From assembly GCF_009914755.1 (NCBI RefSeq), contig NC_060942.1: a DNA stretch of 64,000 nt, one strand, 5' to 3'. The DNA is from the human T2T-CHM13v2.0 reference genome, Homo sapiens. The notes below the pieces were generated by a model. It ran no database searches. It had not been told where the DNA came from and saw only the letters and a program-made list of their open reading frames with translations. Numbering within the stretch: position 1 is the first letter of the stretch; each line of letters starts with the position of its first letter. Positions 17,669 through 40,489 of this stretch are shown piece by piece. A program made the translations under genes and the position numbers.

Positions 17669-18558
17669 CAGTGGCTCTCAACAGAAGCTATATTGACCCT
17701 AGGATCTGCTTTAGAAATATGGGTGGAGTCATTTTTAGTTGCCACAATTAGGGGGTAAACTGGCATTTGTGGGACAGAATGGTAGGCATTTGGCCATGTA
17801 TGGGAAAGTCCCTTGTACCAAAGAATTTTTTTTTTTTTTTTTTTTTGAGAGACAAAGTTTCATTCTGTCACTCAGCCTGGAGTGCAGTGGTGCAATCATT
17901 GTTTGCTGCAGCGTCAATGTCCTGGGCTCAAGCGAGCCTCCCTCCTTGCCCTCCAAAAGTGCTGAAATTACAGATGTAAACAATCACTCCGGCCTGTACT
18001 CATAATTCTTGAATATGATCCAAGACTTCATGTGCAAGTGAAAAATCTGTATTTAATTATCTGAACCTGGAACTTTATTTTATGTGTAGTCACAAGGTAT
18101 ATTTTTTGTATAGTGTAATATACACTAAATTTTTTCAGAGAAGATTGTTTCATTCAGAACTTATCAAGAGTTATTTACTATTCCAGAAAATGACATCATC
18201 AATGTTAATCACATGTTTGAGTTCATGAGTCATCAATACAACACTCAGATTCAGCCTGATTTTTGTAGTTTTTACATTGGGAGTGATTTTACATATGCAT
18301 AAAATATCTACCTACTTCACTATACCCTTTGGTGTAATTAAGCCTAAGCTTTTACACATTGACATGTGTAATTCTTTAGTGTAAATTACTTTTTGTTCTT
18401 TATGTGTATGACCGTCAGAGTAGCATATTGATGGTTTTAACCTCTGTGTTTAGGTTGGTTATGCTAACTATAAATCTTACTTCAGTTTGGTAAAGAGGCA
18501 TTGCAAAATAATTATAGTTAAAAGGAAGCATTTGGTTTTATAGGGTTGAGACCCACTA
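17669..18558 (+). mobile_element. MER20B-like hAT-Charlie element containing an Alu monomer
   Basis: Termini cagtggctctcaac / gttgagacccact; MER20-like 5' body. Confidence 0.65.
17826..17994 (-). mobile_element. FRAM-like Alu monomer
   Basis: T-tract plus right-monomer sequence. Confidence 0.88.
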
Positions 18559-18582
18559 TTCTAGAGCACTTTTATCCAAATA

Positions 18583-18750
18583 CTGTATTTAATCAAATCC
18601 AAAATGCTATCGATTGTAAGATGTACCACTAAAAAAGATTTTTAAATGAGACCAATTAAACTATGAATTGTTTCCAGTTACAAGATGTGTCCTGACTTTG
18701 GAGATGTTAAAACATGTAAAGATGTGAGGCTTAGAATCGTTGAAATATTG
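18583..18750. mobile_element. MER104-like (TcMar-Tc2) MITE
   Basis: Imperfect terminal inverted repeats ctgtatttaatcaaatccaa / ttagaatcgttgaaatattgg. Confidence 0.65.
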
Positions 18751-18759
18751 GCATAATAT

Positions 18760-18980
18760 TAATTATAATAGTAGCAGCTGCTGTTTATTAAGCACCTATT
18801 ATGCTCTGTGAGCTTCACATGCATTATCTCATTTAATTGTTGTTACAACAATGCAAAGTTAGCACACGAAGAAACTGAGGGATACATTATTTGCCCAAGG
18901 TCATGGATTAAGTCTATGGTAGAACTGGGGTTTGAGTCTTTGAGTCTAGGTCTGACTTTATGTTCCAGACCCCTGTCTCT
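18760..18980 (-). mobile_element. MIR
   Basis: tttattaagcacct..., gaagaaactgagg, ttgcccaaggtca core. Confidence 0.7.
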
Positions 18981-19239
18981 AGATCATCTGCTGTCTCTCG
19001 TTGCATGTTTCTCTCAAGATGGGAGGAATCTATGATTCCTCTCAGCTCTTGAGAAAATCCAAGATAGGTAGTAGCTCTTCTTAAAATCCAGCTCCCCTTC
19101 CTTAAGCAGAGTCAGGGCAGGCATGGGAGCTGAAGAAGGAAGGTGCTCTGCTCTCTCCTGCAGGGTGGAAACTGATGGAGACCATCGTAGTTCTGTGCTG
19201 AGAAGACAGGCCACCTGACCGAACATGACCCTCCATTTC

Positions 19240-20190
19240 AATGGATTTCAAATTCTTTTGACTATGACCTAGAAGAGGAAATTTGGTGGGTTTTTTTTTC
19301 CATTTGAGGTGAAGATCATGTAAGATAAAATTAACTATTGTAAAGTGTATAATTCGGTGGCACTCAGTGCATTCACAGTGTTGTGCAACCACCATCTCTC
19401 TGGTTCTATTAACAAAACATTCTCATCACCCTTAAAGGACACCTCATTCCTAGTAAGCTATTACTGCCCATTTCCTGAGCCCCCCAGCTCCTGACAACCG
19501 CTCATCTGCCTTCTGTCTCTATTGATGTCCCTTTTCCAAACGTTTCACATAAATGGAATCATACAATATGTGAGTTTTTGTGTCTGGCTTCTTTCACTCA
19601 GCAAAATGTTTTCAAGGTTCATCCACATTGTGGCTGAATACTATTCCACTGAATGGATACACCATATTCGCGTATTCATTCCCCTGTTGATAACATTTGA
19701 TTTGTTTCCAACTTTTGGCTATTGTGAACTTTTATGTGCAAGTATTTGTTTGAATGCCTGTTTTTAATTCTTGTGGGTGTATACTCAGGAGGGTCATATG
19801 ATAATTCTGTGTTTAACTGTTTGAGGAACTGCCAGACTGTTTTCAACAGCAGCCACACCATTTTACATCCCCACCACCTATGTACAAGGATTCCAGTTTC
19901 TTCACATCCTCACCAACACTTGTTATTTTCTGTTTTTTAAAAAAATTATAGCCATCCTAGTGGGTGTGGAAGAATACATTTTAAAAAATGATTTACATTT
20001 TAAATTACAACCTAGTATACACACATGCAAAGAAAAAATTAACTCAGATAGGAGCTTCACAAAATAATATTGCACTCTGTTATTTTCTATTCTATCATAT
20101 TTCATTTTTCTTTAAAAATTCTGGTTATAATATACTAAATTGATTTCATTATCCACTAAAGGATGGTGGCCCACTGTTTGAAACTCATGG
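19240..20190 (+). mobile_element. Charlie4-like hAT element split by an L1MB insertion
   Basis: 5' piece tttcaaattcttttgactatgacc (19240-19285); 3' piece ending ccactgtttgaaactcatgg (19975-20190). Confidence 0.5.
19290..19970 (-). mobile_element. L1MB-type 3' end
   Basis: Antisense 3'UTR motifs (cacagtgttgtgcaaccaccatc; aatggaatcatacaatatg; gaggaactgccagactgtttt). Confidence 0.88.
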
Positions 20191-20574
20191 CTCTACGTGG
20201 ATGCACAAATTCTAGGAACTTTTTCCGGTTTACATGAAAAATAGTAATAATTTGCCTTTGTGAGTCCAAGAAGACGTCCCAGAAGACTATAAAGTAAATA
20301 AAATTTAAAAGTATAATTTACATTAACAGCAGAGTATTCAGGTGTTGAAGAATTCAGTGTTATTGGAAGAGGGCTGGCCCAAAGGTTATGACTCAGAAAA
20401 TTGCTTTCTGTCCATGAACAAATAAGTTATCCTCTCTGAGATTAATTTTCTGCAGTGAGTAGATGCAGATCCCATGATCAGCACACTCGTTGGAAGGCTG
20501 TGATAAGGATTTGAACAGGATAATGGATGCGATTATAGTTTGAAAATAGTGTAATGATATAAACAGTGAATTGT

Positions 20575-20881
<307 letters not shown>

Positions 20882-20939
20882 CAGTGAATTGTTACTTAAG
20901 TGTGTCTGCAGGAGCCTGCTTGTAGAGCACATTAGTCAA

Positions 20940-21230
20940 TAATAATAATAGTGATAGCCTGGACAGCAACATTCATTAGCTACTTACTATGTGCCAGGCA
21001 CTGTTCTAAGCTGTTTGTCTATATTAACTCGTTTAATCTTCTTATTATAATAGCTGTATAAGGTAGGTACTGTTAATATTAGCCCCTTTCTAAAAATGAG
21101 AAAATCAAGGCACAAGAACTTGATAACGAGTAGTCTGGCCAAAATTACATCTCTATCTGTAATAAATGGCAGAATTAGCTTTGAACCCAGAGGGTCCAGT
21201 TCCTGTTCCTAAATAGTTAACCACTATACT
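20940..21230 (-). mobile_element. MIR
   Basis: cttactatgtgccaggcactgttctaag...atgagaaaatcaaggcaca...tttgaacccag. Confidence 0.8.
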
Positions 21231-21492
21231 ACACTTTCTATTTAAGACTGAAATCAGAATTTTTTATTAGTGTGTTTGAGCATTTATAAAGCTTCCTGTA
21301 GCATTAAGTACTTTTGCAAATCACATGCTTATCTGAGAATAATCAGTGGAAAAAAATGTACATTTTTAATACATTTTCAAGGAAAGAAGAATGTGATCAG
21401 CAAGTCCCTTCAATGAATGATCAGATATTAGCTCTGAAGACTGTAGACTAGCAGAGAGTTTTCTGAACGCATATGTATACATGTAGGAGTGC

Positions 21493-21516
21493 GTGTGTGT
21501 GTGTGTGTGTGTGTGT
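21493..21516. repeat. (GT)12 microsatellite
   Basis: Directly visible. Confidence 0.95.
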
Positions 21517-21840
21517 ACGGGCAGGTGTGCAGGCATTTGCCCGCCGCAGCTTCAAAGAGAGATTGCCAGTTTCCTAGAGGCGCGATTGCTCGGGAACATG
21601 AATGAAAATCCTAAGACAGAAGAGACCAGTGGTTTAGCTGTCAGAATGCAGTGGCCTGCCCTCCTGACCCCTTGCTGACATTAAACAGCCCCTGCCCTGG
21701 AATGCCGCTCCTGGCCTGGCATCCTGGGAGCGTGTGTCCAGCCTGCGGGACAGAGATAAGCGTAAACCTAGCCTCTGATTCTGAACACTAGCTAAGGCTC
21801 CCGACAGTTGACGAGATTGATGATTTTCAGCTGGTATGTC
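21517..21840 (+). promoter_or_regulatory. CpG-retaining candidate enhancer or alternative promoter
   Basis: About 14 CpGs in ~350 bp of non-repeat DNA; AGATAAG motif; donor CTG|GTATGT at 21833/21834. Confidence 0.45.
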
Positions 21841-22932
21841 TCCGTAACTGAGGAGGCCATAGCTTTGATGTATTGGTCAGATCAATTTGGCTTAAGTGCC
21901 CCAGTAAATGAATGCAAATGACTTAAGGAAATTTCTAACTCAAAGGCGAGCCACTAATCCACGTCTTTCAGACCAGAAGCCGAATCATCCAAAGCGGGTG
22001 CAGTATGTGGAGAAAGGGGTGCTTGTCTCCTCCGTTTTCTCCTTAGGAAGACTTCACTGTTGGAGACCTTTCTTCTGAGTGCTGCCCTGGGGTGCTGTTC
22101 AAAATCCAGGCGTCTCATGAATTATGCTGCCAGATCTAGGAGGAGCCAGTCCTCTTTGGAACTAGGTGAACTGGGCTAATGAGAAACAGGCCCATCTCAT
22201 CCGCCAGCCAGTTTGCTCCAGGGCCAGAGGAAAGCCGGGGCCTCTGGCTCCCACATCCCATGTGGCAACCAACCATCAGGTTATGCTTGGCTTTGCAACC
22301 ATCAGGAAAGGCCTCACGTCTGCCTAACTGCAAAACAATTTGGTTGGCTTATAAATTGCTGCCTCTATCATGTGCTTCTGAATTAAAAGGAACCGATGGT
22401 TTTTAAAGGTTTATCTGTTTCATTATTGATGCAGAATGACCTCGTGCTGACAAATTTCGATTTTCACACGGTTTCTTTGCTGATGCAGTATCTCTGCCAC
22501 CCATGCTCTAGGGCAGCGTGGAGCCACTTCAGAGCATGGCTTTTGTGAGCCAGCGCCCAGCAGGGTGTTCTTTTCTGAGTGCAAAGAGAGAATCCACTGA
22601 CCTCATTTGCTTCCATCCTGTGAACCTCTCAGTGTGTTTCAGAACACCAGGGTCTGAACAGAGAAGCTTCAGAATACTTTCTCCGACTAGAGAACTTTTT
22701 TATGGTGGGAGGAAAAAATGTTGCCAGTCCCACTTCACAGACACCTGGAATTCATGAAGTCTGAGGACTTCTTTCATTTTACTTTCAACTAAAAGCTCTA
22801 GCACGAAACAGCAAAGGCTCACAGAACTAAAGATCAGGAGGTGGCCCTGTGAGAGGGTGTTCAGCCTGGATCCCTGGTGAAACTCCATCATTGAGCAGGT
22901 CTGTGATAGCCCTTGTGGTCTTCTTTCTGCAG

Positions 22933-23009
22933 ATAATACTCATAGACTATGCTGCATAAATTCTCAGATTATTCAAAGATGAACAAACAGTTCAAATGGG
23001 CAGTTTTAT
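22933..23009 (+). other. candidate exon E3
   Basis: Acceptor gtcttctttctgcAG|a and donor TAT|GTGAGT; 77 nt. Confidence 0.45.
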
Positions 23010-23452
23010 GTGAGTGTTTCACTCTCAACCCTTTCCTTTTTTCAGTATGTCTCCCTCCTTTTTTCCTCTCAAGCATATCTACTTCAGAAAGCGTGGAAAG
23101 AAAAGAGCCTGGTGGGAAAAGTCTATCAAGTGATAGTGACGTGCCCTTATGGAAAAAATTCTGGGGTAAGCAGAATTGGGGTTTTACTCTTAAGCTAACA
23201 TGAGATGAGATTACTCTATCCTAACAAGATTTAAGCATCTTGTTTTTCTAAATGTTCGGTCATTTGTGTTAAAACAGAGGAAAATATGACATCTAACCTT
23301 TTTTTCCTGAGAAAATAATCACTGTCCTCCATGCTTTGCCAACAACAATCCTTTTTCCTCCCATTTATTGTAAGAGCTACAGTATCTGCAGTTTGGCAGA
23401 ATCACCACCCTCTCTGGGGTGTTTGATTTCGCCTTTCGTATTTGAGCTCTTG

Positions 23453-23545
23453 GTGTGTGCGTGTATGTGTATGTGGGTGTGTATGTGTGTGGGTATGAAT
23501 GTGGGTGCATGTCTGTGTGTATGTGTGTGCTGTCTGTGTATTTGT
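23453..23545. repeat. degenerate (TG)n-rich tract
   Basis: Directly visible. Confidence 0.85.
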
Positions 23546-24179
23546 ATTGAGGTAAGGACACTCTCTGAGATGTAAGAAAGCACTACAACTGTTTATAGGG
23601 AATGAGTTCTTTATTTTTATTCCCCAAGACGTTTTATAATCTTGTGTTTTTCAAGTTTGCCTTAAAGAATAAACAACCTTCTATTTTGTAAGTTTTTTTT
23701 AGATGTGTTCATTAGAAAGATCAGATCTTTCAGTACTTGCCATTAACCAGTTTTCTCTTAAGTTAATCATCCACATATAACTCTCCAAAGAATAGATTTA
23801 CTTTAGTTGTGATTTTTCCAAAGTCTGTTTTTGCTTTCTCTGTTAAAAACAAATAGAAAAAAAAGGAAGGAGGAGATGAGAGAGAATCCTGCCCTTTTAG
23901 CATATAGAGTTCTGAAATAAAAGACTGAGTTGTACAGAAAAGCCGCCAACACCATCATTTGTTTTCTGTGGTTTCTGATGATTCTTTGTGGAGCAGTTTT
24001 CAAATGGAACATTTTCTTGCTATCACAGGAAAACAGCACACTCCAGGGTGGATTCTGATTGCTGTAGCTAAAATCTCTATCTCCTATTTCCAGAAGCAGA
24101 AACACAAATGAGGTCTGATGGTTGAAAACTTAATGGAAGAAAAAAATAGAACATTTATGCATAGAAATAAACACATACA

Positions 24180-24395
24180 CACAAAGGAATACAGGAAAAA
24201 CTGGGAAATCTGAATAAGATCAGTGGATTGTATTAGTGTCAATTTCCTGGCTCTGATATTGTACTACAGTTTTACAAGATGTTATCACTGGGAGAAACTA
24301 GGTTAAAAAGTACATGAGATACCTCTGTATTATTTATTATAATTGCATGTGAATCTAAAATTATCTCAAAATAAAAAAATAATTTTTAAAAAATT
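24180..24395 (+). mobile_element. L1MC/L1MD 3' end
   Basis: tgtcaatttcctgg...caagatgttatcactggg...ttgcatgtgaatctaaaattatctcaaaataaaa. Confidence 0.8.
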
Positions 24396-24905
24396 TGGAA
24401 AAGTAACAAAAGGAAAACTAAATAGTACCTTAAAAATAAAAAACTATTTAACATTTGTATTTTGAAAATAATTAGAAGCACATGAAAGAGATTGTGGCTT
24501 TTTTGTTCATTCTTTTATAAATTACTGGTAACTTATCATAGTACCTAAAACACGAAAGGAAACAGGTATAGTATGCTTCAGTTTGTAAGTTCAGAGGGTA
24601 TTTTTGGTGGATTAAACCAATAACCTAAATTATCATGAGAATTATGAAGCCAAGTTTTTATGTACTTTGTGATAATTTAGGTTGAAGGCACATTATACTC
24701 TGACTGGCAACATCTAGGTAGAATTAAAACTTTATAACTTTGGTTAGTAAAAACGATGGAATTAGATAAATCCATTATCCTTTATGGCTATAATAAAGAC
24801 CTTCGCCAAAACAAAGAATATGAGTATATTTGCTTTTCAGGGATGGGAAAAAGAGGATTCTAGGAATAACCATTAATATTCAGAGTGAAATGTGGGTTGA
24901 GATGA

Positions 24906-25321
<416 letters not shown>

Positions 25322-25750
25322 TGATATACGTTTATGTCATTATAAAACTGAGAGACAGAGTATTTGTAGCAAAAATTTTAGAGACCAGACTTCACAGAAA
25401 AGGAATAACTAAATCCCTTCTGAAAGATATCTTACTACCTAACCACCTGTCAAAGCCTGTGAGATTTACTATATCCCTGCTACAACACAACATAGCTCTA
25501 CAGACAACTTGAACTCGAGATTTCGTTTTGATACGTGATTTTGTCATGTTTGGAGAAAGTGATGATGTTGAAAGAAAAGTGTCTCCTCTTTAAAATACGT
25601 TCCTTAAGCGACTGCCTTGGAGCGGGAGATTAGGTCTCATTTCCATTCAATTCAAATTGGGCTTAAAATGTAATTCCAGGCCCTGGCAGCTACCACAGGA
25701 TAATATGCTCCCTCATTGAGAAAAAACTTGGCACTTAAAACTGATGAGTA

Positions 25751-26129
<379 letters not shown>

Positions 26130-26489
26130 TTATGTCAGCTTGGCTTCTAAGTTTGAGGAGTTAAAAGGAGATTGAGCAAGAGATTTACGGCTGGCTGCCA
26201 GAGGAACACTTCAGGTCACAGAGGCTTATGGAACTACTCGAGTCACAGTATGTGAAACGCAAACAGCTGTCTGCCTTACTGAGGCCAAACCTGAGTGAAA
26301 ACGCATGGTTGTGGAGTGCAGGGGCAGGAACTTAAACACACATGCAAGGTGAAGGAGGGCCTGCAGAGAGTCTTATGAGCGGTCAGCCACTTCTCTGTTA
26401 GCTAAAACCTTCAAACACCTTTTTTCCTATTTCTGATACTGCTTTGGGAAAATAACCAGGCAGTTGGTCTGTGTCCAGTCTACTGTAAT

Positions 26490-26720
26490 AACAGGATTAC
26501 CATTTACTCGGCACCTGATTACCACATGCCAGCCATTTCATGTGGCTTATCTCGGTGTATGATTACACTACCCATAGGCCATAGGTACTATTACTATTTC
26601 CATTTCACAGATGAGTAAGCTAAGGCTTACAGAGGTTAAGGAACTTGCCTCAAGTCACATTCTTAGGAGTAATAGAACCAGTACTGAAATTCGAGCAGCT
26701 GGCCTTAGCGCATGCGCTCA
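26490..26720 (-). mobile_element. MIR
   Basis: ccatttcacagatgagtaagctaaggcttacagaggttaaggaacttgcc core. Confidence 0.78.
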
Positions 26721-26777
26721 CTAAACTCACTACAGTGTACAGCTCTCTCTCTCTGTGGCAGCTGATGAGGCGGGAGC

Positions 26778-27218
26778 TGCTGGTGGAAATTCTTCATGGG
26801 TCTCTTGTGTTTCTACATATCTCCACTTTGCTAAAAGAGGCACTAGCCATCTATGTTCTGGGCTATATCTTCAAGAATGCTTATATAGCAAATAGTCTTG
26901 GAAGACAGAGATGGCACTGTCTCTGAAGCAAAGGGCAGGCATGCTTAGTGCCTACTTTAAAAAGTCCGAGTTCCCTACCTTCAAGTTTCCTCTACCACAT
27001 CATGACTGCTGTGTCTGCACGTGTCTTCTGGCCCTCTTTGCATTGTCCTGTGGGAACTGGGGAGTGGGGAACCAACAGAAGTGCAGAAGTCCCAGCTACT
27101 GTATAGCTGTGAAAAATAAACCATCCTTTTGTCTCTCTCCCAGTAGTCTCATGTCTTCTACCAGCCTCCCTGGGATGTGGCCTGCTAACTTAGTTTGCAT
27201 TTGTTCTATTTCATGACA
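26778..27218 (+). mobile_element. LTR40-like ERVL solo LTR
   Basis: TG...CA ends; aattcttcatgggtctc and ttggaagacagagat...gcaaagggcagg motifs; AATAAA near 27115. Confidence 0.7.
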
Positions 27219-27231
27219 GTAGGAGGGGCTA

Positions 27232-27546
<315 letters not shown>

Positions 27547-27687
27547 GTGGCTAAAATAGCTGATGGACTTTATGGAGACAATTTCATGGTTCCCAGAAGG
27601 AAGACAGAGAAGGATTTAATGCAGAGCAGTGAATCCCCTGGGCTTATGAACCAAACCACTTGTCTACCCAGTTTGTTTTCCTTTGAC

Positions 27688-28140
27688 TGTTAGAGTGGAT
27701 ACTGGGGTGCTCCATCCAGATGTTACCTTCACAGCTGGGACACTCATTTCCCAGCTGCTGGAAGCATTGGCAGTCAAAGATTCTCATCTGAGTCCTTCTC
27801 CGTGAATTATCTTAGGCTACCTTGCCCAAGGATGGCCTCCTTCTACGAGTCTGCGGCTGTGGGTGGGTTGGGGGAAGTGAGGGAGTGCAGAATTTTCTGC
27901 CCTTGCTTCAAAGCAGGACAGCTCTGATGTTAGCTCCAGAGCTTCCTTTGGGAGAGGTTCAGTTTTCTGCCTTGTTTTGTGTGCGTCTGTGCAGACATCA
28001 CAGTTCAGCTCCTTCCTCTGCTAAAATGCACTCCCTTCACTCACAGCACTGACTTAGAGGGGCCTCCGAAAGAAATTTCCAGTGTGTAATCTCAGTGCAC
28101 AAATCTTAGAGAATGTTTCCCAGGGAAGTGACCAAAGACA
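27688..28140 (+). mobile_element. LTR16-like ERVL solo LTR
   Basis: TG start; end tgtttcccagggaagtgaccaaagaca resembles the LTR16 terminus. Confidence 0.6.
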
Positions 28141-28842
28141 GTTCTCTTATAAATCATGATATGCAACAAAAGGTCATATGAAAAAAGTGCTTCCCAAGAT
28201 TTTGTGTGCTTTTAGTCACCATATTTGGTATCCATAGGCTTAAATAGGCCATTCAAATATTACCTATAAGCTTGACAAAATAATATAGTTACCTCAAATT
28301 CTGATAGTTACATTAAAGAAATTATGTTTTTTAAGCACTAAAATTTTGATAATTTTGTAGTATATTCACCGAATTGCTTTTTCTAACACACTATTATACT
28401 AGTAAGTAAAAAGTAATAGAAAAATCTTTAACTTATTATAAAATGCCCTGATGGAAATTTTGGTACAATTGAATTTCTGTTTTCACTTGAGATACAGATA
28501 CTTTGAATGTTTCATAGATTATGTAAATGGAAGAGTGGGAAACAAGTCACACCATTTAATGTGTCCAGGAAAAATAGAATAACCTCCTTTCCTACAGAGG
28601 GAGGCAAAAAGACCGTAAGATTTGTTGGAATGGAAAATTTGGAGCTTTGCACAACCTCTGAAGTATAGATTTGGAGGGGAAAAGTGGTAATGAATACACT
28701 GAAACAACTTCCTCGCTTTGGAATTAACAAGAATAGACCAGTAAGAGCAAGGATAAGATACAGGGCCAGTAGGTCAGTACCAGGCTGATGTGATGTCAGT
28801 AACGTTAAGGAACCCAATCTTTTGTTAAATGATGTCATCAGC

Positions 28843-29120
28843 TTTTTTTTTTTTTTTTTTGAGACAGAGTCTCACTCTATTGCCCAGGCTGGAGTGCAGT
28901 GCTACGATCTGGGATCACTGCAAATTCCACCTCCCAGGTTCAAGGGATTTTCATGCCTCAGCCTCCCAAGCAGCTGTGATTACAGGCGTGCGCCACCACG
29001 CCCGGCTAATTTTTGCATTTTTACTAGAGACAGGGTTTCACCATGTTGGCCAGGGTGGTCTCAAACTCCTGACTTCAAGTGATCCACCGGCCTTGGCCTC
29101 CCAAAGTGCTGGGATAGCAT
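28843..29120 (-). mobile_element. AluSx-like, slightly 5' truncated
   Basis: Antisense dimer lacking the first ~20 bp. Confidence 0.93.
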
Positions 29121-29820
29121 AGTTATTGGTTGTTTCTGATTGGAAACTAAGTGTGGAAATAAGACCTCTCCAGCTCCTGCGGTTATAAGCTTTGTCCCAT
29201 GTGATAAACAAATCAGACTTTTTTTACGCTGGGAGTAGTTTAATTTTCAACCTCTGCTGCAGGGAAGACTAATCCTTCATTATATTAAGGTAAAAGCAGC
29301 ACTAAGATATTTTAAAGTTTTATTTTTTAAAAGAAAGTTTCACATGAAACATGAACATTTCTCATGAATAAATGCATTATATTGACAAGTTTCATTCTTA
29401 TCATGCAACAAGTTGAACCAGTTACTTTTAATCAAAATAATGTTATGCAAGATTTAATAGTCCAATACTCGACTCAGTTATGTAAACAAACAAGACAAGC
29501 TAAATCCTTTGTAGTCTGCTAGACGTTTTGCTTGGTTGGAATGGATCTCCCACATAAGACACAATCTTTAAATTGAAAAAGGAAGTCCTAGCGATAGCAA
29601 ATATACAAACAAAAAGGAGTGTTAGTTTAAATCCTTATTTAGCTTATCTGAAGTTGCATACAATAAACAGAGTTTCATTGTGTTCCAAACAACTCATATA
29701 TTGCTTCATAAACCTGGTATCTTATTATTCAAGACTTCAGACCAAAAATGAGGTAACAGATTGAGCAAGTTTCTGTTTCATCCATAGAGATATTTAAGGT
29801 GACACTACAAAGAAATTTTG

Positions 29821-30127
<307 letters not shown>

Positions 30128-30470
30128 CTACAAGGGTGACGTTACAAAGAATACATAATTGTAAGGGAAACATCTTCCCCATGGGTATGAATAGTTTTTA
30201 AATTTTTGGAATTAGAGATATACAGATTCTTTTAAAATTGTTATCTAAAATCATTATTGCTCAATAATTTTCTAGCAGGTGAAACAGGCACAAAGTTTAA
30301 CCAGTTGAAATCTGGGTGGTAAAAATGCAGACGAGGGGTTATCTCAAGATCAGCATTCAACTCAAAGGCAGTCCAGTCCAGTGCTTTTTGTGTGTGTTTG
30401 TGTGTGAGTATGCATGCATGTGGGTAAATGATCAAAGACTCTTAATGAGACCTAAGATTTCGAAGTTCTC

Positions 30471-30879
30471 CTAAGCAAGCAAATGTACATGAAGTACCTA
30501 ATGCAATGGCTGGAATATGAAAAGACCTCAAAATGTATGTCAGTCTATGACTCTGCATGGATGGAAATATTGCCTGTCTGTCTGGATACCTCAGATAGAT
30601 TTACTCAAGTCAGGCTTGCATTGCAGCTACAGAAAATTCCAAGCAGTTTTTTGATACCTACCTGATTGCTCTTCTAGTCAACACCCCTTACTGACAAATA
30701 CTTCAGAAGCCACTCTTTCTGGCAGTTCTGGGCTATGCTCAGGGATCACTTGGGGGTCTTAAAAGCTGGGCAGAATCACCCCAAAGCTAAACAATTGAAA
30801 ACAATGTAGGAAAACACAGAGGAGAATGAGTATGGGCTTCTTCCACGTGGGCGAAACAAGACAGTCAAGACAGTCATGA
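30471..30879 (+). repeat. left arm of a non-Alu long inverted repeat
   Basis: Colinear with the reverse complement of 32093-32471, roughly 80-85% identical by eye plus indels; 30-bp perfect block 30838-30867 / 32096-32125. Confidence 0.95.
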
Positions 30880-31021
30880 ATCAAATTTTAAAATCAAATC
30901 TACCAGATTTTGATGTCTTTATGACACATTCTATTACTCAACTTTGGAAAAGAATATCTTGAGTCGTGTGAATAAGCCTAGTACTTGCATTTTGAATGGG
31001 TCCTTCCTTTGGTGTTTACAG

Positions 31022-31190
31022 TTCAGAAACAATAGAGATACCAAACAAGATAAGACTAAGCCACAGAGGTATCTGAAAAGCTGCCATCAATCAAAGCTCT
31101 TTGTGAAGCTGGTTAGTGCAGGTTCCATTGTTCTAAGGAGCAGGCAAAAGGAACAAATAAAATCCAGCTGTTTCTTCATTCTTGCACCAG
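31022..31190 (+). other. candidate exon E4 inside the inverted-repeat spacer
   Basis: Acceptor tccttcctttggtgtttacAG|t; consensus donor CAG|GTGAGT; 169 nt; open in the frame of ORF 30944..31372. Confidence 0.5.
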
Positions 31191-32092
31191 GTGAGTCCCA
31201 GTATCAATACTTCATTCATTGTGGATTAAGGGGAAAGTGGCCTTCATTTCCTTTCTCATTCCATTTTGAAACCTCAGATTTCTTTCTTTCTGCCAATGAT
31301 ACCCAGTTGTTGAGTCATAGCCACCTGGGCTCTAGTTCTGGCATTGCTTGCAATGTCATCATGAGAACCTGATAGATGGTGTTAATAGCAGAGTTTAGAC
31401 TTACTGATCAAGAAAAAAATACTTTTAGATTGCTTACCTTTGGAGGGTTTTGCTATGTTTAAAGAAAGTCAGTTTTTGACACTCAAATTTAATTGACTGT
31501 CCTATATAGCAGTCATTTCACATGATAATTTTTTTCACAAAATAAAGGAATTTAGTGCGCTAAAAGTTTCCTGAATGGTGGGATGTTGATAAAAGTAAAG
31601 TTGTGAATTGGGGGGGTCACGTGAACCAGGATTTAATTGCATTTGTGCCACTTGGTGTTAGACCCTTTCTCTACTCATGTTAACTCTACCTCTGTTGTTC
31701 ATAGTTTCCTTACTCGCAAATTAACATAACTGTGTGATTTTTGTGGACTCTAGAAAAACATCTTGTGGGATGGATTTCTAGATTTAGAAATGCTTTTAGC
31801 ATTTATTAACACCCATAACCTAGGAAATGAAAGTAATAAAAATAATATTTTGGTAAGACAGAAAATCTGTTTTCATTTCTCCTTTTTGATATTTGTAATT
31901 GGTTGGGGCAGAAAGTTCTTTTGTGTTCTTGTGTGGGCATGTATATGCTAATGAATTTGAGATGAGGAGCCACTGTCTTTAAGACAACTCTCCCTTATGA
32001 TGTTTTGCATACATGTATATTCTCTTTCACTCTAGATTCAACTTCGAATAAACACCATGCTCTCAGCCAAGGAAGAGTAAATCTAGCATTAG

Positions 32093-32471
32093 TCATGACT
32101 GTCTTGTTTCGCCCACGTGGAAGAATCTCACATCCATTCGTCTCCGTGTTTCCCTGTATTGTTTTTGATCTTTTAGCTTCGAGAGATTCTTCCCAGCTTC
32201 TAGAACTCCCAAGTGATCCCTGAGCATAGTCCAGAACTACCAGAAAGAGTATTTTTCCAACAAGTTTCCAAAGTATTTGTTGGTATGGGGTGTTGACTAC
32301 AAGAGCAATCAATAACTCTGCTTGGAGTTTTCTATAGCTGTAATGCAAGCCTGACTAATAAATCCAACCGAGGCACCCAGACAGACAGGCAATATTTTCA
32401 TCCATGTGTTGAGGCCTTTGCATATTCTGGACAATGTGGGTTAGGCACTTCACGTACCTTTCTTTGCTTAG
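32093..32471 (-). repeat. right arm of the long inverted repeat
   Basis: Reverse complement of the left arm; outer end runs into a MIR at about 32420-32600. Confidence 0.95.
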
Positions 32472-32598
32472 TCTTCATAACAGCTGAGTGAATCAGGTAA
32501 TATAGTATAGTCTCCACTTTGTTGAGAGTTTAGGTAACTTGCTCAAGACCACTCAAACATTTGCCCCTGGTTCCAAATGCTGCAGTCTTAACTACTTA

Positions 32599-32975
<377 letters not shown>

Positions 32976-35159
32976 CTAAGAAGGAAGATCTGAATTCTTC
33001 TGACATGCCTATGTCATGTATTTTCCAGATAACACCCTCCAAAACCCCGCAAGGTGAAGCTCATGTCATCCAAAACCAAGGCATGAGCCAGAGCCTAAAT
33101 AGAGGAAAGAAAATAGAAGAGAGAATTCTAGCGACATATCTGGTCATCATTCCAAGCAACCTGGCTGAACTTTTGCATCGACAAACAATTTTTTCTTGAG
33201 CATTTTTAAATTTACAAGCTGGTTTTCAACAAAGCTTTTCAAAAAGAAGTCTTTATGATGGCAAATCTTTAAAAGAAATGTGTTTTAGACCAAGAAAGGC
33301 AAACCTTTCATGTCCTGTTTAGTCTCTAGCATGCTTGTTTTCAAAACACAAGCTCCAGTCTGCATGTTTCTGCAGTCAACTGTCTGTCTTAGAAAATATC
33401 TCAAAATCAATCTGTCCCCGTGTTTGCTTATGATTCTGCGGTAATCCTCTGTTTGTAGTCACAAGTTGTCAGGAGAACATCATGTAAGGCATGGTATGAA
33501 GACTTAAGAAATCTTGAAATCAAAAACTTCAATTTTCTTTCTCTTGAAGTGTTTCTAAGGGATGAAAAATGAGAAAGGAAATTAGCATCTACTGTTACCT
33601 CATTTAATTCCTTCAACCATCTTCAGGGTATTATTGTCTCCAAAAAGAAACCAAGGTTCAGAGAAGAGGACTCACTTGCCCTGTGACCTATGACCAGGGG
33701 TCCCACGTTGGGACCCAGAATTCTGACTCGAACCCAGTGCTGGCTCCCCTGTGTCCCAGGGATGGGCAGGATAAGATGTTCTTTAAAACTTTGTTTGTTG
33801 GGCACCTCAAAAAACCCTTATGAATTATTGCTTAAGTTATTTTGGCATAATAACGTCACTAAGTCCATGGAAAATTAAACTTTTAGAATCTCTGTTATAT
33901 GGCTAGATCAATACTAAACTACCCCTTTTTTTCCAAGTCCCTGGAAAAAGTGAAATTATAAGTTTTGACTACATGGGAGGGCTTTGGTGCCTCATACACT
34001 TGCATTAAATGCAGTATCCTTGAAAATAATAGAATATGTATTTGTGAGAGTAAAAATTTATACATGCAGCAGTCCATAAGAGAATTAGATCCAGAAAGTA
34101 CAACTTGAAAGAGTTCTAAACTCTTAGAACAAATTGATTTAAATTTGAATAGTACTGAATATGAATTGATGGAAAGTGAATATTTAGAACCCCCTTTTGT
34201 GAATTTCAGTAAGCTGACATTTGTTAGCTCCTGACGCAGTAGCTTTTCTGAGTCAAGAACTGAAGGTACCTTGAATTACCTGACAGATAATCATACAGAG
34301 ATGTGAAGTCAAATGTCATATTCCATTAAGCCTAATCTGCAGTTGCAGGAAGGGTGGACAATCTTGCCTAAACATTTGACAGATTTGGAATGTCTCTTGC
34401 CATAGACATTTAGCATGAACCAGCTTCATTGTCCTAGTATCTGTCACACAGAAATGGTCCCTTGCTCGGCTTCTAATGGATTTGCTGCAAAGGCTGTGAG
34501 GAATGAGTCACACTCAGGGACACGATGACACAGGAACAGCTTCTACAACACAATCCTCTGCAATAGGGAAAGCTGTGCCTCTCCCCAGGGACCTGCCTAT
34601 AAAGTTGGTCTTCTTTCCACTAAGGAGGCATCCCTGAGAGCCCCCCATAAATTAAGGAGAACTTCTCTAGGTAACTACTAAAAAATAAGGCCAACAAACT
34701 AAATCCTTGGGATATGAAATATTAATGTGATGGGAATTACCTTAATAGGAAACAATTGAGTATACACTGTATTACATAAGTGAGGCTTAAAAAAAAAATA
34801 ACATTGAGTTCCGGGCATTTTTTTTCTTCCTTGGAAAATGCCTTGAAATCTTTTCCATCAACACAGTCTAACAGTACAGGTTATGGGTGACATATAGTTT
34901 CAAGGCAAATTGCAGCTTAGTTGGTCAAACTCTTTCAGTAGGAAAAAAAATGACAATTTGAAAGAGTTCTGGAAGGGCTAACACTAAACAGTTCCATCTT
35001 GACCTCAAACCAACGCAATCTGCAAACAAGTCAATATGTGAACCCAAAGGAAGATTCTGCCCCAGCCTAAGAAAGGGACAACTTTTCCTTCTCTGGAATC
35101 GAAATGTTCCATGAAATTAAATCATTGATTAAAAGCTGGGGAGGCAAAGACTGTTGAAA

Positions 35160-35620
35160 TGTCAGTTAAGATACTTTAGGCTGCAAATCTGATTCACCAT
35201 TGCTTAAACGATAAGAAATGGTATCTGCACAGCTGGAAGTCCAGGATGGGATGGCTTCAAGTTTGGCTCTATCCAGGGACTGTCTCTCAATCTTCTGTTT
35301 AGTGGGTGTTGTCCTAGGCTGGCTTCACTCAAGGGGATAAAAATAAGTATGGTCCTCCCAGGCCTTATATCCATCTACACAACATCCTGGGGAAGAGGTT
35401 TCTGGAACCTCTAGTACTAATCCATATACCATGGGAATAACAGGTACTGATTGGCTTCAACCTGAATTCCTTAAATTAATCTTTGTGAAAAGGAGGCTGG
35501 GATGACCTTGATTGAGTTAAAATAGTCAGGGTTCCACCTGTGGAGTGGAGGATGAGATCAGTTTCCTACAATCCACATCCTACACAATGGGTGAGGGATG
35601 GAAGGAATGCTGGAGACTAC
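35160..35620 (-). mobile_element. old MLT1 (J/K/L-type) MaLR LTR
   Basis: tgtcagttaagatactttaggctgcaa...gcttaaac...gaagtccagg start; tgattggc motif. Confidence 0.55.
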
Positions 35621-36580
35621 CACATACCCGCCGATATTCATGATATCTTGGTCTTTTGTGTTTCACAATAAACTCTTAAGAACATTGTGAGTATTTTATG
35701 GATGTGAAGGTTTTTCAGAGGAATTTATTGTAGGGAAAACAAAAAGATCAATGAGTTTAAGCTTTTAGGCTTAAACTCTCTCTGCTCCCCTGCATTACAC
35801 TTTTATTCTTATGCTGTGACAGCAGACCCTCCTCCCCTATTGGCCACCCCCTGTGCCCCTGCTAGTCCTCTGGGCCCTCTGTCATTCCCACTGTGGCCAC
35901 TGTTGAAGTGACTGGCTTCCTACAGGCACTGACCAGCTTTGAGCAGGTGGCACCTGCCGGCCCCTTGCTGCAGGCCACTCCCTGTGCTTCTGGCTTCCTG
36001 CCGTAGGGTTCACTATGGATGCCTAAGGAAATCTGCCAGGCAGTGTAGGAAAGTTCACACCTACAGGACCATGCACCCCGTGTCCTTCAGCACATCTCAA
36101 GAAGCTCCTCAGAAAGTGCAAGGGTCGAGCCCCAGAGGCATCTTGTATCAACTTCCCTTCCTTTCTTCTTCCACTCTCTCTGCCCCTCATGCCAATCCCT
36201 CCTTTACCAAATAAGTGCCTTCCTTCAGGGTTGGAATCAGGCTGTGCTTTCAGGGATGCTCTGGACAGCATTAACTCTTAGGTGACATTTGTGTAGCATA
36301 CATCTACGGAGAATGTAAATGTTACCTCGCAAACACATACATGAGCCCCCAAACTTCTGAAGACTAAAGCAAATTCAAGTCTTGAATTCTGTGCAAAAAG
36401 CCAGATTCGCTATTCATTAGAGTGTCCTATGTAACACCTTTCTCTCTGCACATCCCATCATCTTTCTCCCTAGACAGTAGCTGTCTCGCCATTTTTATCG
36501 TGTCTGGCCCACGAGTTACCTATGTATGTGCATTCTCAGAGAGTTAAAGTGTCTCAAAAGATGGTTAAAATGAAGGTAGA

Positions 36581-36868
36581 GGCCGGATACAGTGGCTCAT
36601 GTCTGTAATCTTGGCACCCTGGGAAGCCGAGGAGGGCAGGTCACTTGAGGTCAGGAGTTTGAGACCAGCCTGGTCAATGTGGTGAAACCCCGTCTCTACT
36701 AAAAATACAAAAATTAGCCGGGCATGGTGGCGGGTGCCTGTAATCCCAGCTAGGTTGAGGCAGGAGAATCTCTTGAACCCAGAAGGCAGAGGTTGCAGTG
36801 AGCCAAGACTGTGCCATTGCACTCCAGCCTGCGTAACAAGAGCAAAACTTATCTCAATAAATAAATAA

Positions 36869-36911
<43 letters not shown>

Positions 36912-36912
36912 A
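36581..36912 (+). mobile_element. AluSx-like with long (AAAT)n tail
   Basis: TSD aa(a/g)tgaaggtaga; tail STR at about 36856-36912. Confidence 0.94.
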
Positions 36913-37092
36913 GTGAAGGTAGAGATGAAGCTACACTGGAGGAACAAACAAAGTGAAGGAATTGGAGAGAAAAGCTCATGCCAGGGATGACCCATGTGAA
37001 AAGAGACGACAGCTGGAAGGCTCACATCGTTACACCCCAGACTCAGTCCTGTGCAGATTTAGCTTTCGTCACTGGCCTGCTGCCCAAGATAG

Positions 37093-37468
<376 letters not shown>

Positions 37469-39699
37469 TATGTTTGGTTGTTTTCTTACTTAGGTCTCTC
37501 TTGCTCCCCAAAGAGTTTAAAGCATCTCTCCTTTAGAATCTCTCAGCAATCTTACACTCCAGGTTGATATTATTGCATGTGAAGCTGGACAAATTGAACC
37601 TCAGCTGGAGCTTTAGGTGCAGCAAGCTAATTTTTACTTCCTTTATTTAAGACAATTTAAGGAAAGTACAAGCCACTGAGCAAATGTTTAGTTGCTCTTG
37701 AGCACACAGCACTGCCTGTGCGCTGGATGGTGGGGGGAAAGAGAGGGAGGGAACAAGGAGCAGAAGCAGCACTACCTGCAACCGGGAGATTTGTTCTGGT
37801 TGCTATAGACGCTATAGAGGCAATGTTCAAAGTCATTGACAGTCTCTCTAGTCTTCTCGTGACTTTCCCAAAGGTTTTAACTCAGTGACTACACACCACT
37901 GTGTGTACTACACACCAGGGTATACTACACACCAGGGAATATGAGAACACTACATACTAACCAATGCTTTCTCCCTGAGAGGCAAACACAGAAAAACCAC
38001 AGTGAGACATTGGGTACCCAGAGGTATTTTTTGCACACGTTTATTTCTACTGAGGGTCATTTGAGCTCCAGTTTGACCAAAAGTATTTTAGATGATCTTA
38101 CATTTTATTTATTTTTTTCAGATCTTAAGCCACATAAATGTGTTCTCAATTTGAAGAGAAAAGTTATTCATTAGCTTATCTTTCAGTCAGCTTGCATGCA
38201 CTTTCTGCTCAACTAATTGTCATGTTTAGTGATTGCATTTACAACATTCATAGAAATAAATGATGCATGCATTTCTTATGATGTAGTAAACTTCAGCTGA
38301 AGGCCTTCAAAATCTGAGAGACACCACTGGCAAAACCTGAGCGTTGCAATTACAGGTCCAAGAAAGACCCATTCTATTTTATCTGTATAGTAAAAATTAT
38401 AGAGAGAATTTCTATTTATTTATAATTCATTAGTGGCTATACCTTGGGATCCCTAGAAGCTACGCATTTGTTTTCAAAGCCTCTCTGGGATTTAAAAATC
38501 CCTTGAGTGAAGAAGGAATGCATCCCAGTTGTATGGAAAAGTTCCTTATCTTGGGTGGTCATTAATGGGATCAAAACAATGCCCAACGCCTGCTTTGTCA
38601 GGAAAAAAAAAAAAAAAAAGACGGTCGTGAGCCACACAGATGACATCGAACTTCAGCATTGTCAGTCAAACCTTGATGTTTCTCACTCTTAAATCTTAGT
38701 AGGAAATGTGAGTTAGTAAATACATGAAAGGAAGTAATGATTCCTTGTTGTTGTTTCTATGATTCAAACAGAAAACTACTAATATTAGTGTTTCAGATAC
38801 TTTTCTCTTTTTTTTCCTTTAATAAATTACCTAGGAGTAAGCTTGAAAGAGTAAGCAAGAGGCTGTCTACAGTGCAAAGTCACCCAGCAAAATGGGAGCA
38901 GCCTTGCAGAAGGAGCAAGGCTCCTTTCAGAGGCACCTGGGTGGATAAGCTCACCCTGTTGGTGGCAGCTAGGAAAAGGGGTCACTAGTGCTCGGTGTTG
39001 TTGGATCATGTAACCTTCCTGGTCACCATCACCAGTCCTGAGCTGGAACTGTAACTTAGGGTGTGGCATAAGAGTGTAGAAACTTGAGCTTTAGGACCGG
39101 ACAGGAAGACATTCCGGGAACCAAAATTGTATAAATCAAGAAGAAAAATGTTTTGGTATGACAAAGCAAAGTAATAGGTAGTACACTCTTTACAATTAAA
39201 TGTCAAATGTCAACAAAATATGGAACCAACAGTAAAAACAAATGGATATACCTCAGCATATACTGTGTACTAGCTTTTTATGCTGACCTATTGCAAACTT
39301 ATTTAGGCCTCTCTCCGCTGCACAGCTGTTGGTTTGTTTTGTTTTGTGATCTGATTCTTAAGCCTCTCCTCTCTCACTCTCTCTCTCTCTCTCCTTCTGA
39401 TTGTTGAATTGTGGAAAATACTGAAACCTATCTATAGTTCTAAAATTCCAGGATAATTGCTTCTCATCTATTCATGCAGATCATCTATTCACACAACTTA
39501 TTATTAACATGCACATAGGGAAAAATATTTCTGATTTACTACTTTTTGACATTCAGCCTTCTGTTCCTCAAATAATCAAGGTAATCATTCCTTTTGAAGC
39601 ATCCCCTATTCCCTTCATCCCTAAATCAATGTGTGTTTCTGTTCCCTTTCCTAGGCCAGTGCCTCTGCCTGGAAGTTCCCAGGCAGCCTGGATTCCACT

Positions 39700-40379
<680 letters not shown>

Positions 40380-40489
40380 CTATCATGAAACTATATTCAT
40401 TATATTTGTAGCAGAGTATGTGATGCACAGTACTTGCTAAGTCAATGTTTATTAATTTCTCTTTTTCATAACTTTATCATATTCCTTAG

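What the first reader, a model, noticed from the sequence alone, without database searches (positions are those of the whole stretch)
31022..31190. Candidate exon inside the inverted repeat: possible structure-controlled skipping, circularisation and frame switch
Seen: the spacer holds a 169-nt segment bounded by a pyrimidine-rich acceptor (AG 31020-31021) and a consensus donor CAG|GTGAGT (31191). Established: complementary intronic flanks promote exon skipping and back-splicing. Inference: 169 is not a multiple of 3, so the exon toggles the downstream frame. With E3 skipped, inclusion (E1-E2-E4-E5-E6-E7) gives an uninterrupted 149-codon ORF from ATG 579 (MANSRSEARGSRGDGVNEE...ARPSNCW*). Skipping allows an 88-codon ORF from ATG 17366. 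A unique-sequence duplex acting as a splicing or frame switch would be unusual.
Basis: inference. Interest (0 to 1): 0.7.

Follow-up and report, generated by a model that had tools for sequence, protein, structure and literature searches.

The report
Annotated lncRNA exon inside inverted repeat
The 169-base segment is an already annotated, non-coding alternative exon that happens to sit in the loop of an old single-copy inverted duplication, an arrangement of a well-known kind that may favour exon skipping or circle formation but shows no sign of encoding a protein.

Summary
The sequence observation holds. 31022-31190 is 169 nt, with AG at 31020-31021 and CAG|GTGAGT at the donor. It lies in the 1220-nt spacer of an inverted repeat, 30556-30871 / 32092-32406. 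The arms match at 256 of 303 aligned bases and occur nowhere else in the genome. As RNA they are predicted to form a 266-bp duplex of about -266 kcal/mol, stronger than the neighbouring inverted Alu pairs.

The hub's RefSeq table already lists this exact exon in a second predicted transcript of lncRNA LOC105371972. The listed transcript skips it, so it is a known predicted cassette exon.

The coding and frame-switch reading is not supported:
- The 149- and 88-codon ORFs reproduce arithmetically.
- They need two unannotated exons and unannotated junctions.
- 351 of 1310 comparable upstream pseudo-exons would also supply an in-frame ATG.
- There is no Pfam match.

The arms decay as neutral DNA, with no bias that preserves pairing (16 G.U against 20 A.C). 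Loop-out skipping and back-splicing driven by non-repeat complementary introns are established (PMC8052449, PMC5052039). This would be a plausible, untested new instance, of low interest.

The parts
31022..31190 (+). 169-nt alternative (cassette) exon. RefSeq-predicted exon of a second LOC105371972 transcript. No ATG; open in one of its three frames only.
   Evidence: hub annotation in the finding
31002..31021 (+). Acceptor: polypyrimidine tract (14 of 18 pyrimidines at -20..-3) ending in CAG
31188..31196 (+). Donor CAG|GTGAGT, 9 of 9 matches to MAG|GTRAGT. One of 3 such sites in the window.
30556..30871 (+). Left arm of the single-copy inverted duplication, in the intron upstream of the exon
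32092..32406 (+). Right arm of the inverted duplication (reverse complement of the left arm: 256 of 303 aligned bases identical, 25 gap columns), in the intron downstream of the exon
30872..32091 (+). 1220-nt spacer (the loop of the predicted hairpin). Unique in the genome; holds the exon.
23074..23165 (+). Upstream annotated LOC105371972 exon. Its donor joins 33029 in the skipping transcript.
   Evidence: Hub annotation; splice contexts printed
33029..33893 (+). Downstream (last) annotated LOC105371972 exon
   Evidence: Hub annotation
28834..29120 (-). Alu opposite in orientation to the Alus at 27267-27555, 29813-30125 and 32609-32916. It is the only Alu partner that could pair across the exon, and it has two nearer partners in the same intron.
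   Evidence: I1-I4, I7; net duplex energies
32609..32916 (+). Downstream Alu (SRP-like Rfam matches on the + strand), a possible cross-exon partner of the Alu at 28834-29120

Best explanation
31022-31190 is a genuine but non-coding alternative exon of the predicted lncRNA LOC105371972. That gene is nested in intron 2 of LINC01387.

The exon lies in the 1.2-kb loop of a single-copy inverted duplication of about 316 nt. The duplication is tens of millions of years old and is decaying like neutral DNA.

Every + strand primary transcript that crosses the region carries both arms. They are therefore likely to fold into a long imperfect duplex of about 266 bp. That duplex draws the distal splice sites (23165 donor, 33029 acceptor) together, and also the exon's own acceptor and donor.

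Inferred, not shown: the fold lowers inclusion of the exon, giving the annotated skipping isoform, and permits some back-splicing into a 169-nt circle.

The fact that 169 is not a multiple of three has no consequence, because nothing here is translated.
For: Exon quality:
- The donor is 9 of 9. It is the best of the 6 annotated donors scored in the window (the others score 6-8 of 9).
- The acceptor pyrimidine fraction of 0.78 lies within the annotated range of 0.67-0.94.
- The hub's RefSeq table lists 31022-31190 as an exon of another LOC105371972 transcript, and lists a transcript that skips it.

Inverted repeat:
- 256 matches, 47 mismatches and 25 gap columns; 36 transitions against 11 transversions; K2P 0.179.
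- In the whole genome only the two arms match each other: 2 of 2 candidates scored.
- The spacer matches only itself: 1 of 1 candidate.
- The best-conserved 30-mer, allowing up to 3 mismatches, occurs only at the two arms, and the control pattern gives 0.

Predicted folding:
- Net dimer energy is -266.0 kcal/mol with 266 of 316 left-arm bases paired to the right arm. Thirty shuffles of the right arm give -9.6 +/- 3.5.
- The two inverted Alu pairs nearby give -226.2 and -200.2.
- In the global MFE of 30500-32460 the same 266 of 316 pairs form. They contribute 316 of the 739 kcal/mol.
- No other partner for either arm exists. The upstream Alu that could pair across the exon has two nearer partners in its own intron.

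Mechanism in print:
- Looped-out exons have lower inclusion, more so with more stable structures, and circRNAs are circumscribed by such pairs (PMC8052449, passages).
- Engineered non-repetitive complementary sequences induce circles, including a single-exon circle (PMC5052039, passages).

Non-coding status.
Against: - No RNA evidence of any kind was available here: no junction reads, back-splice reads or editing sites. The exon rests on a predicted (XR) model that I could not inspect.
- The arms show no sign of selection to keep pairing. Transition differences give 16 G.U against 20 A.C on the + strand RNA (p = 0.62).
- One review reports that the 65 chr18 lincRNAs it covers, including LINC01387, have no entries in CircInteractome or CircBank (PMC10968066, passages). 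LOC105371972 itself was not among those genes.
- From recall, not checked in any call: single-exon circles are usually longer than 169 nt, and helicases and ADAR can oppose such duplexes.
- The strong splice sites could make the exon efficiently defined before the right arm, 901 nt downstream, is transcribed.
Confidence: 0.6

Rival explanations
1. The exon is an ordinary alternative lncRNA exon. Its use is set by the alternative start (22279 against 21970) and by ordinary splice-site competition. The inverted repeat is a neutral relic with no measurable effect on skipping or circularisation.
For: - Neutral-looking decay of the arms: 36 transitions against 11 transversions, 16 G.U against 20 A.C, and CpG count 2 against 6 in the two arms.
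- The including transcript has a different first-exon start in the hub's table.
- No circRNA is reported for the chr18 lincRNAs in two databases (PMC10968066).
Against: The duplex is predicted to be stronger than the inverted Alu pairs beside it, and it dominates the global fold. Genome-wide, more stable flanking pairs go with lower exon inclusion (PMC8052449).
Confidence: 0.35
2. The exon is a frame switch in a protein-coding chain: a 149-aa protein when it is included, and an 88-aa protein from ATG 17366 when it is skipped.
For: - Both ORFs exist as computed.
- For the fixed chain, shuffling each exon gives a first-ATG ORF of at least 149 codons in only 5 of 20,000 trials.
- The core 31022-31190 + 40490-40604 + 53311-53367 is open in one frame. 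Only 564 of 50,000 random triplets of the same lengths have any open frame.
- LINC01387 carries the old name C18orf64, with protein existence rated 'uncertain' (PMC10968066).
Against: - The exons ending at 615 and at 17354-17421, and the junctions 17421>31022 and 31190>40490, are not annotated. NR_120518.1 has its first two exons outside the window.
- The chain was picked after the fact, with one exon dropped. 1310 pseudo-exons of at least the second exon's quality lie upstream, and 351 of them supply an in-frame ATG into 31022.
- The exon has no ATG, and 9488 of 50,000 random 169-nt pieces have an open frame.
- The open frame ignores the splice sites (30914-31372, 152 codons without any Met). 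It is one of 6 stop-free stretches of at least 150 codons in the window.
- No Pfam match at E <= 1 for the exon parts. The 152-codon frame gives only a chance-level hit: E 0.11, 12.1 bits against a cut-off of 25.
Confidence: 0.03
3. The segment is a pseudo-exon: a chance pairing of good splice signals, with a gene-prediction model that is rarely or never used in vivo.
For: - Consensus donors occur at the chance rate: 3 against 2.77 expected.
- Exon-like segments with 8/9 donors occur on both strands: 4 on + and 6 on -.
- The model is predicted (XR), and no paper names LOC105371972 (0 papers).
Against: It is the only 9/9-donor segment with a good acceptor in 128 kb of both strands. Its boundaries coincide exactly with an independently produced RefSeq model exon (hub annotation).
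Confidence: 0.12
4. The arms are the terminal inverted repeats of a decayed non-autonomous DNA transposon, and the exon was recruited from its interior.
For: The overall shape fits: two inverted arms of about 316 nt around a 1.2-kb interior, with sharp outer ends.
Against: - No other copy of an arm, the spacer or the conserved 30-mer exists anywhere in the 3.1-Gb genome.
- The 8 bases outside the two ends match at only 3 of 8 positions, so there is no target-site duplication (read).
- Neither of the 2 long open stretches of the element that were scanned has a transposase-like Pfam match.
Confidence: 0.05
5. The main consequence of the repeat is the double-stranded RNA itself, as a substrate for A-to-I editing or for hairpin-derived small RNAs. 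Any splicing effect is incidental. This is not exclusive of the best explanation.
For: The predicted duplex has 266 bp with perfect runs of up to 30 bp. Long-range pairs overlap A-to-I editing sites genome-wide (PMC8052449, Discussion passage).
Against: No editing or small-RNA data could be consulted. No Rfam family matches the arms beyond chance: the best is 16.1 bits against a gathering score of 50, E 0.76.
Confidence: 0.2

Closest known systems
Exons looped out by pairs of complementary intronic regions (PCCRs; Kalmykova et al. 2021, PMC8052449, passages read)
   Same: Complementary non-repeat sequences sit in the two flanking introns. The exon lies in the loop. The expected outcome is lower inclusion, and such pairs also circumscribe circRNAs.
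   Different: PCCRs are short and are defined by conservation across species. Here the pair is about 316 nt long, arose by a local inverted duplication, shows no pairing-preserving bias, and sits in a lncRNA. I did not open that paper's PCCR tables (Supplementary Data 1-2), so I do not know whether this pair is listed.
Intronic complementary sequences that drive exon circularisation (inverted Alu pairs and engineered non-repetitive pairs; PMC5052039, passages; Zhang et al. 2014 and Liang & Wilusz 2014 as recalled)
   Same: Reverse-complementary arms bracket the circularising exon. Competition between alternative pairs decides the product. Here the unique pair has no competitor and is predicted to be at least as stable as the local Alu pairs.
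   Different: The arms are single-copy, not Alu. The exon is short at 169 nt. No back-splice junction has been seen, and none is reported for LINC01387 in two circRNA databases (PMC10968066).
Mouse Sry circular transcript flanked by long unique inverted repeats (recalled; no call)
   Same: A single exon is bracketed by long, locus-specific, non-transposon inverted repeats.
   Different: As I recall, the Sry arms are many kilobases long and nearly identical, and the circle there is the main product. Here the arms are about 316 nt at 84.5% identity, and the product is unknown.
Inverted intronic Alus that turn a constitutive exon into an alternative one (Lev-Maor et al. 2008, recalled; no call)
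   Same: A duplex across an exon is associated with skipping.
   Different: That case concerns repeat-derived arms in protein-coding genes.

Membership tests
Alternative (cassette) exon of a lncRNA | AG acceptor with a polypyrimidine tract, and a GT donor close to consensus | tested here: met
   CAG acceptor, pyrimidine fraction 0.78, donor 9 of 9
Alternative (cassette) exon of a lncRNA | Transcripts both with and without the exon | not testable with these tools
   Stated only by the hub's RefSeq table: one predicted transcript skips it and another holds 31022-31190. No RNA-seq was available.
Exon looped out or circularised by intronic complementary sequences | Reverse-complementary sequences in the upstream and the downstream intron | tested here: met
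   arms 30556-30871 and 32092-32406, 256 of 303 aligned bases identical, E 1.4e-70
Exon looped out or circularised by intronic complementary sequences | The cross-exon pair is stable and is not out-competed by pairs within one intron | tested here: met
   net -266 kcal/mol, and 266 of 316 pairs kept in the global MFE; no other partner for either arm. This is prediction only.
Exon looped out or circularised by intronic complementary sequences | Back-splice junction reads, or a change in inclusion when pairing is disrupted | not testable with these tools
   No transcript data were available. A review finds no circRNA for LINC01387 in two databases (PMC10968066).
Conserved functional RNA structure | Substitutions biased towards keeping base pairs | tested here: not met
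   16 G.U against 20 A.C among 36 transitions, p = 0.62. This compares the two arms within one genome only; cross-species covariation was not testable.
Protein-coding exon | An open frame bounded by the exon, joined to annotated coding exons, with homologues or a known domain | tested here: not met
   - the frame runs through both splice sites.
- no ATG, and 19% of random pieces have an open frame.
- no Pfam family.
- The hub's table lists lncRNAs only.
DNA transposon with terminal inverted repeats | Other copies in the genome and a target-site duplication | tested here: not met
   no other copy. Flanking 8-mers match at 3 of 8 positions.

The most novel reading that the evidence does not exclude
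A primate-age, single-copy 316-nt inverted duplication acts as a structural switch on this exon. In transcripts that cross LINC01387 intron 2, the duplex decides between three outcomes: inclusion, skipping, and release of a very small 169-nt circular RNA. Such transcripts include those from the LTR-associated alternative promoter that is switched on in melanoma cells after NIPBL loss (PMC12283374).
Probability: 0.15. Interest if true: 0.35.

Novelty: new member of a known kind. Interest (0 to 1): 0.2.

Why it matters
If the duplex were shown to control this exon, it would be one more natural example that locally duplicated, non-transposon sequence can do what inverted Alus do in circRNA biogenesis and exon skipping. 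The arm pair has no competitor, which would make it convenient for minigene work. It would not change current understanding. The host genes are poorly characterised lncRNAs, the mechanism is established, and the more striking part of the proposal, a protein frame switch, does not stand.

Tried and rejected
- Transposon origin of the repeat: rejected. The arm, the spacer and the conserved 30-mer have no other copy in the genome, and there is no target-site duplication.
- Known RNA family in 30000-33000: only Alu-type matches (SRP, mir-3135 and mir-1268 models) in the flanking Alus, plus two chance-level hits.
- Protein domains in the exon frame, the following LINC01387 exon frame, the 152-codon genomic frame and the 119-codon minus-strand frame over the right arm: none above chance.
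- Selection for pairing, tested by G.U against A.C among the arm differences: none seen.
- The 30-nt perfect run at the inner arm ends, which holds CCACGTGG and two CpGs. A run of that length is roughly expected once per three such alignments at 84.5% identity (my own arithmetic, no call). I did not pursue it as a binding site.
- Locating the published LINC01387 intron-2 alternative promoter in the window: not achieved.
  - 21900-22900 is single-copy.
  - 20800-22000 holds only an 82-nt end of a common repeat and one weak match.
  - The paper's supplements gave expression values but no coordinates that I could use.
- A search for the length distribution of single-exon circles returned one irrelevant paper. 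That point is therefore marked as recalled.
- Earlier findings of this scan were not open.
- Not done:
  - No homology search of the ORF against the large protein databases, which I judged not worth the cost.
  - No MaxEntScan or SpliceAI, because they are not installed.
  - No cross-species comparison, because no other mammalian genome is held.

Full report
**The observation**

- AG lies at 31020-31021 behind a tract with 14 of 18 pyrimidines at -20..-3.
- The segment runs from 31022 to 31190, which is 169 nt.
- It ends in CAG, followed by GTGAGT from 31191.

I scored the splice sites with a simple count of matches to MAG|GTRAGT and a pyrimidine fraction.
- The donor scores 9 of 9. The five other annotated donors in the window score 6 to 8.
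- The acceptor tract, at 0.78, falls within the range of the annotated acceptors (0.67-0.94).

A full-consensus donor is not rare in itself. MAGGTRAGT occurs 3 times on both strands of the window against 2.77 +/- 1.66 expected, and 52 of 100 shuffles reach 3. Of those 3 donors, only this one has a YAG acceptor with a good tract and no intervening AG 50-300 nt upstream. With donors of 8 of 9 there are 4 such exon-like segments on the + strand (of 15 donors) and 6 on the - strand (of 21). Splice signals alone therefore do not prove use.

**What the annotation adds**

It lists 31022-31190 with exactly these boundaries as an exon of a second predicted transcript of the lncRNA LOC105371972 (21970..33893, + strand). 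The listed transcript XR_007088562.1 joins 23165 directly to 33029.

So the 'candidate exon' is already an annotated, predicted cassette exon.

LOC105371972 is nested in intron 2 of LINC01387, whose first two exons lie upstream of the window. LINC01387 primary transcripts therefore also carry the exon and both repeat arms.

No paper in the library names LOC105371972 (0 papers).

**The inverted repeat**

The repeat finder on 27000-35000 gave 11 inverted pairs.
- Five of them (I5, I6, I8, I9, I10) are collinear blocks of one repeat, with arms 30556-30871 and 32092-32406.
- Five (I1-I4, I7) are Alu pairs.
- One (I11, 26 nt at 77%) looks like chance.

A global alignment of the left arm with the reverse complement of the right arm has 328 columns: 256 matches, 47 mismatches and 25 gap columns. 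Identity is 84.5% over aligned bases. There are 36 transitions and 11 transversions, and the K2P distance is 0.179.

Three searches of the whole 3.1-Gb assembly show that the repeat is single-copy.
- The left arm finds only itself and the right arm. Both of the 2 candidates were scored; the partner gives 78% identity with gaps counted and E = 1.4e-70.
- The 1220-nt spacer finds only itself.
- The best-conserved 30-mer, allowing up to 3 mismatches, is found only at the two arms, and the control pattern gives none.

The 8 bases outside the two outer ends agree at only 3 of 8 positions (read). Neither of the 2 long open stretches of the element that I scanned has a transposase-like domain.

I therefore read this as a local inverted duplication, not a transposon. 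With a recalled neutral rate of about 2.2e-9 per site per year, the K2P distance suggests an age of roughly 40 million years. This is an inference, and it assumes no gene conversion.

**Would the arms pair?**

- Co-folding the two arms gives -411.5 kcal/mol, against -78.0 and -67.5 for the arms alone. The net is -266.0 kcal/mol, with 266 of 316 left-arm bases paired to the right arm.
- Thirty shuffles of the right arm give a net of -9.6 +/- 3.5, with a minimum of -17.4.
- The two inverted Alu pairs nearby give -226.2 (28834-29120 with 32609-32916) and -200.2 (28834-29120 with 29813-30125).
- In the minimum-free-energy fold of the whole stretch 30500-32460 (1961 nt, -739.0 kcal/mol) the same 266 of 316 pairs form. 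Forcing the right arm to stay unpaired costs 316.3 kcal/mol.

The exon sits 150 nt after the left arm and 901 nt before the right arm.

The only Alu that could pair across the exon is 28834-29120, which is opposite in orientation to 32609-32916. It has two nearer partners in its own intron, at 27267-27555 and 29813-30125 (orientation supported). By the published logic of competing pairs (PMC5052039, passages), the unique repeat is the dominant cross-exon pair.

All of this is thermodynamic prediction. Nothing here shows that the duplex forms in cells.

**Is the pairing under selection?**

Among the 36 transition differences, 16 leave a G.U wobble and 20 leave an A.C mismatch in the + strand RNA (p = 0.62). 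The arms hold 2 and 6 CpGs, a pattern typical of CpG decay. I see no evidence that the pairing has been preserved by selection. The arms look like neutral DNA that still has physical consequences.

Rfam holds nothing for the arms or the exon beyond chance. There were 7 matches at E <= 1 in 30000-33000. Five are Alu-type hits in the flanking Alus, and the other two score 22.8 and 16.1 bits against gathering scores of 55.8 and 50.

**The coding and frame-switch claim**

The arithmetic is right.
- With exons 579-615, 17354-17421, 31022-31190, 40490-40604, 53311-53367 and the start of 53947-53975, a 149-codon ORF runs from ATG 579 to a stop just inside the last exon.
- Without the 169-nt exon, an 88-codon ORF runs from ATG 17366.
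- For the chain taken as fixed, this is uncommon. Shuffling each exon gives a first-ATG ORF of at least 149 codons in 5 of 20,000 trials, and any such ORF in 14 of 20,000.

But the chain was assembled after the fact.
- The two upstream exons and the junctions 17421>31022 and 31190>40490 are not annotated.
- One exon ('E3') was left out to keep the frame.
Of these, 351 would supply an in-frame ATG reading openly into 31022.

Further points weigh against a coding exon.
- The exon holds no ATG.
- 9488 of 50,000 random 169-nt pieces of the window (19%) have an open frame.
- The exon's open frame belongs to a 152-codon stop-free stretch, 30914-31372. This stretch runs straight through both splice sites and contains no methionine. 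It is one of 6 stretches of at least 150 codons, and one of 15 of at least 130 codons, in the window.
- The one mildly unusual fact is that 31022-31190 + 40490-40604 + 53311-53367 stay open in one frame. Only 564 of 50,000 random triplets of those lengths (1.1%) have any open frame. The 115-nt LINC01387 exon is open in all three frames.
- Pfam finds nothing for the exon's frame or for the next exon's frame at E <= 1. The 152-codon frame gives only a chance-level hit: E 0.11, 12.1 bits against a cut-off of 25.
- The longest ORFs of the annotated LOC105371972 chains are 75 and 73 codons, with or without the exon.

A review notes that LINC01387 once carried the name C18orf64, with protein existence 'uncertain' (PMC10968066, passages). 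It is the only paper holding that name.

I put the coding reading at about 3%.

**Comparison with what is known**

- In the catalogue of conserved complementary regions, exons looped out by such pairs have lower inclusion, more so for more stable pairs. The pairs are depleted around exons and enriched just outside circRNAs. The Fig. 3D legend counts 73,366, 13,974, 1,877 and 374 looped-out exons in the four energy groups (PMC8052449, passages).
- Engineered non-repetitive complementary sequences in the flanking introns induce POLR2A circles, including a single-exon circle, and competition between pairs selects the product (PMC5052039, passages).

This locus fits that kind on every feature I could test: arms in both flanking introns, a stable predicted duplex, and no competitor.

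It differs in four ways.
- The arms are long and come from a local duplication.
- There is no sign of selection on the pairing.
- The host is a lncRNA.
- The exon is short.

The decisive features, which are back-splice reads and a response to disrupting the pairing, could not be tested. One review reports that none of the 65 chr18 lincRNAs it covers, including LINC01387, appears in CircInteractome or CircBank (PMC10968066). LOC105371972 was not among those genes.

**Verdict**

The exon and the flanking duplex are real. Structure-favoured skipping or circularisation is plausible: I put at about even odds that removing an arm would measurably change the exon's fate. The frame-switch and protein idea is not supported.

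The exon is already annotated and the mechanism is textbook for circRNA and loop-out splicing. This is at most a new, untested member of a known kind, and I score interest at 0.2.

**Limits**

- No RNA-seq, editing, small-RNA, conservation or repeat-library data could be consulted.
- Splice-site scoring used a crude consensus count.
- The genome search tool warns that very common words are skipped and that counts are lower bounds.
- The PCCR tables of PMC8052449 were not opened.

Noticed in passing
window 5790-6105: A tandem array of 5.0 copies of a 63-bp unit at 100% identity. The period is a multiple of three, which explains the cluster of long stop-free frames on both strands at 5465-6400. 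GC rises to about 0.52 there.
   Followed up: partly
window 30838-30867 and 32096-32125: The inner ends of the two arms share a perfect 30-nt run containing the palindromic E-box CCACGTGG and two CpGs that are intact in both arms. Elsewhere the left arm has lost the CpGs that the right arm keeps (2 against 6). A run this long is not clearly beyond chance at 84.5% identity.
   Followed up: partly
window 30853-30870: The left arm carries a 9-nt tandem duplication (AAGACAGTC twice) at its inner end that the right arm lacks. Allowing for it, the complementarity extends a few bases further inward (read).
   Followed up: no
LINC01387 intron 2 (window <1..40489), exact place not found: A published LTR-associated alternative promoter in LINC01387 intron 2 is activated in melanoma cells after NIPBL knock-down and splices into the existing downstream exons (PMC12283374 and its preprint, passages). 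LINC01387 rose by log2 fold changes of 3.6 and 2.9 in a supplementary table. Transcripts from such a start could run through the exon and both arms. I could not place the promoter in the window.
   Followed up: partly
window 47803-47811 (+) and 43794-43802 (-): These are the two other full-consensus donor sites of the window. The one at 47803 has no acceptable acceptor 50-300 nt upstream under my filter.
   Followed up: partly
window 30385-30412: An imperfect (TG)n microsatellite lies about 150 nt upstream of the left arm.
   Followed up: no
window 32872-33893: According to the hub's table, the last exon of the - strand lncRNA LOC107985176 (32872-33554) overlaps, in antisense, the last exon of LOC105371972 (33029-33893). 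The - strand gene ends 466 nt short of the right arm, so only read-through on that strand would carry the repeat.
   Followed up: no
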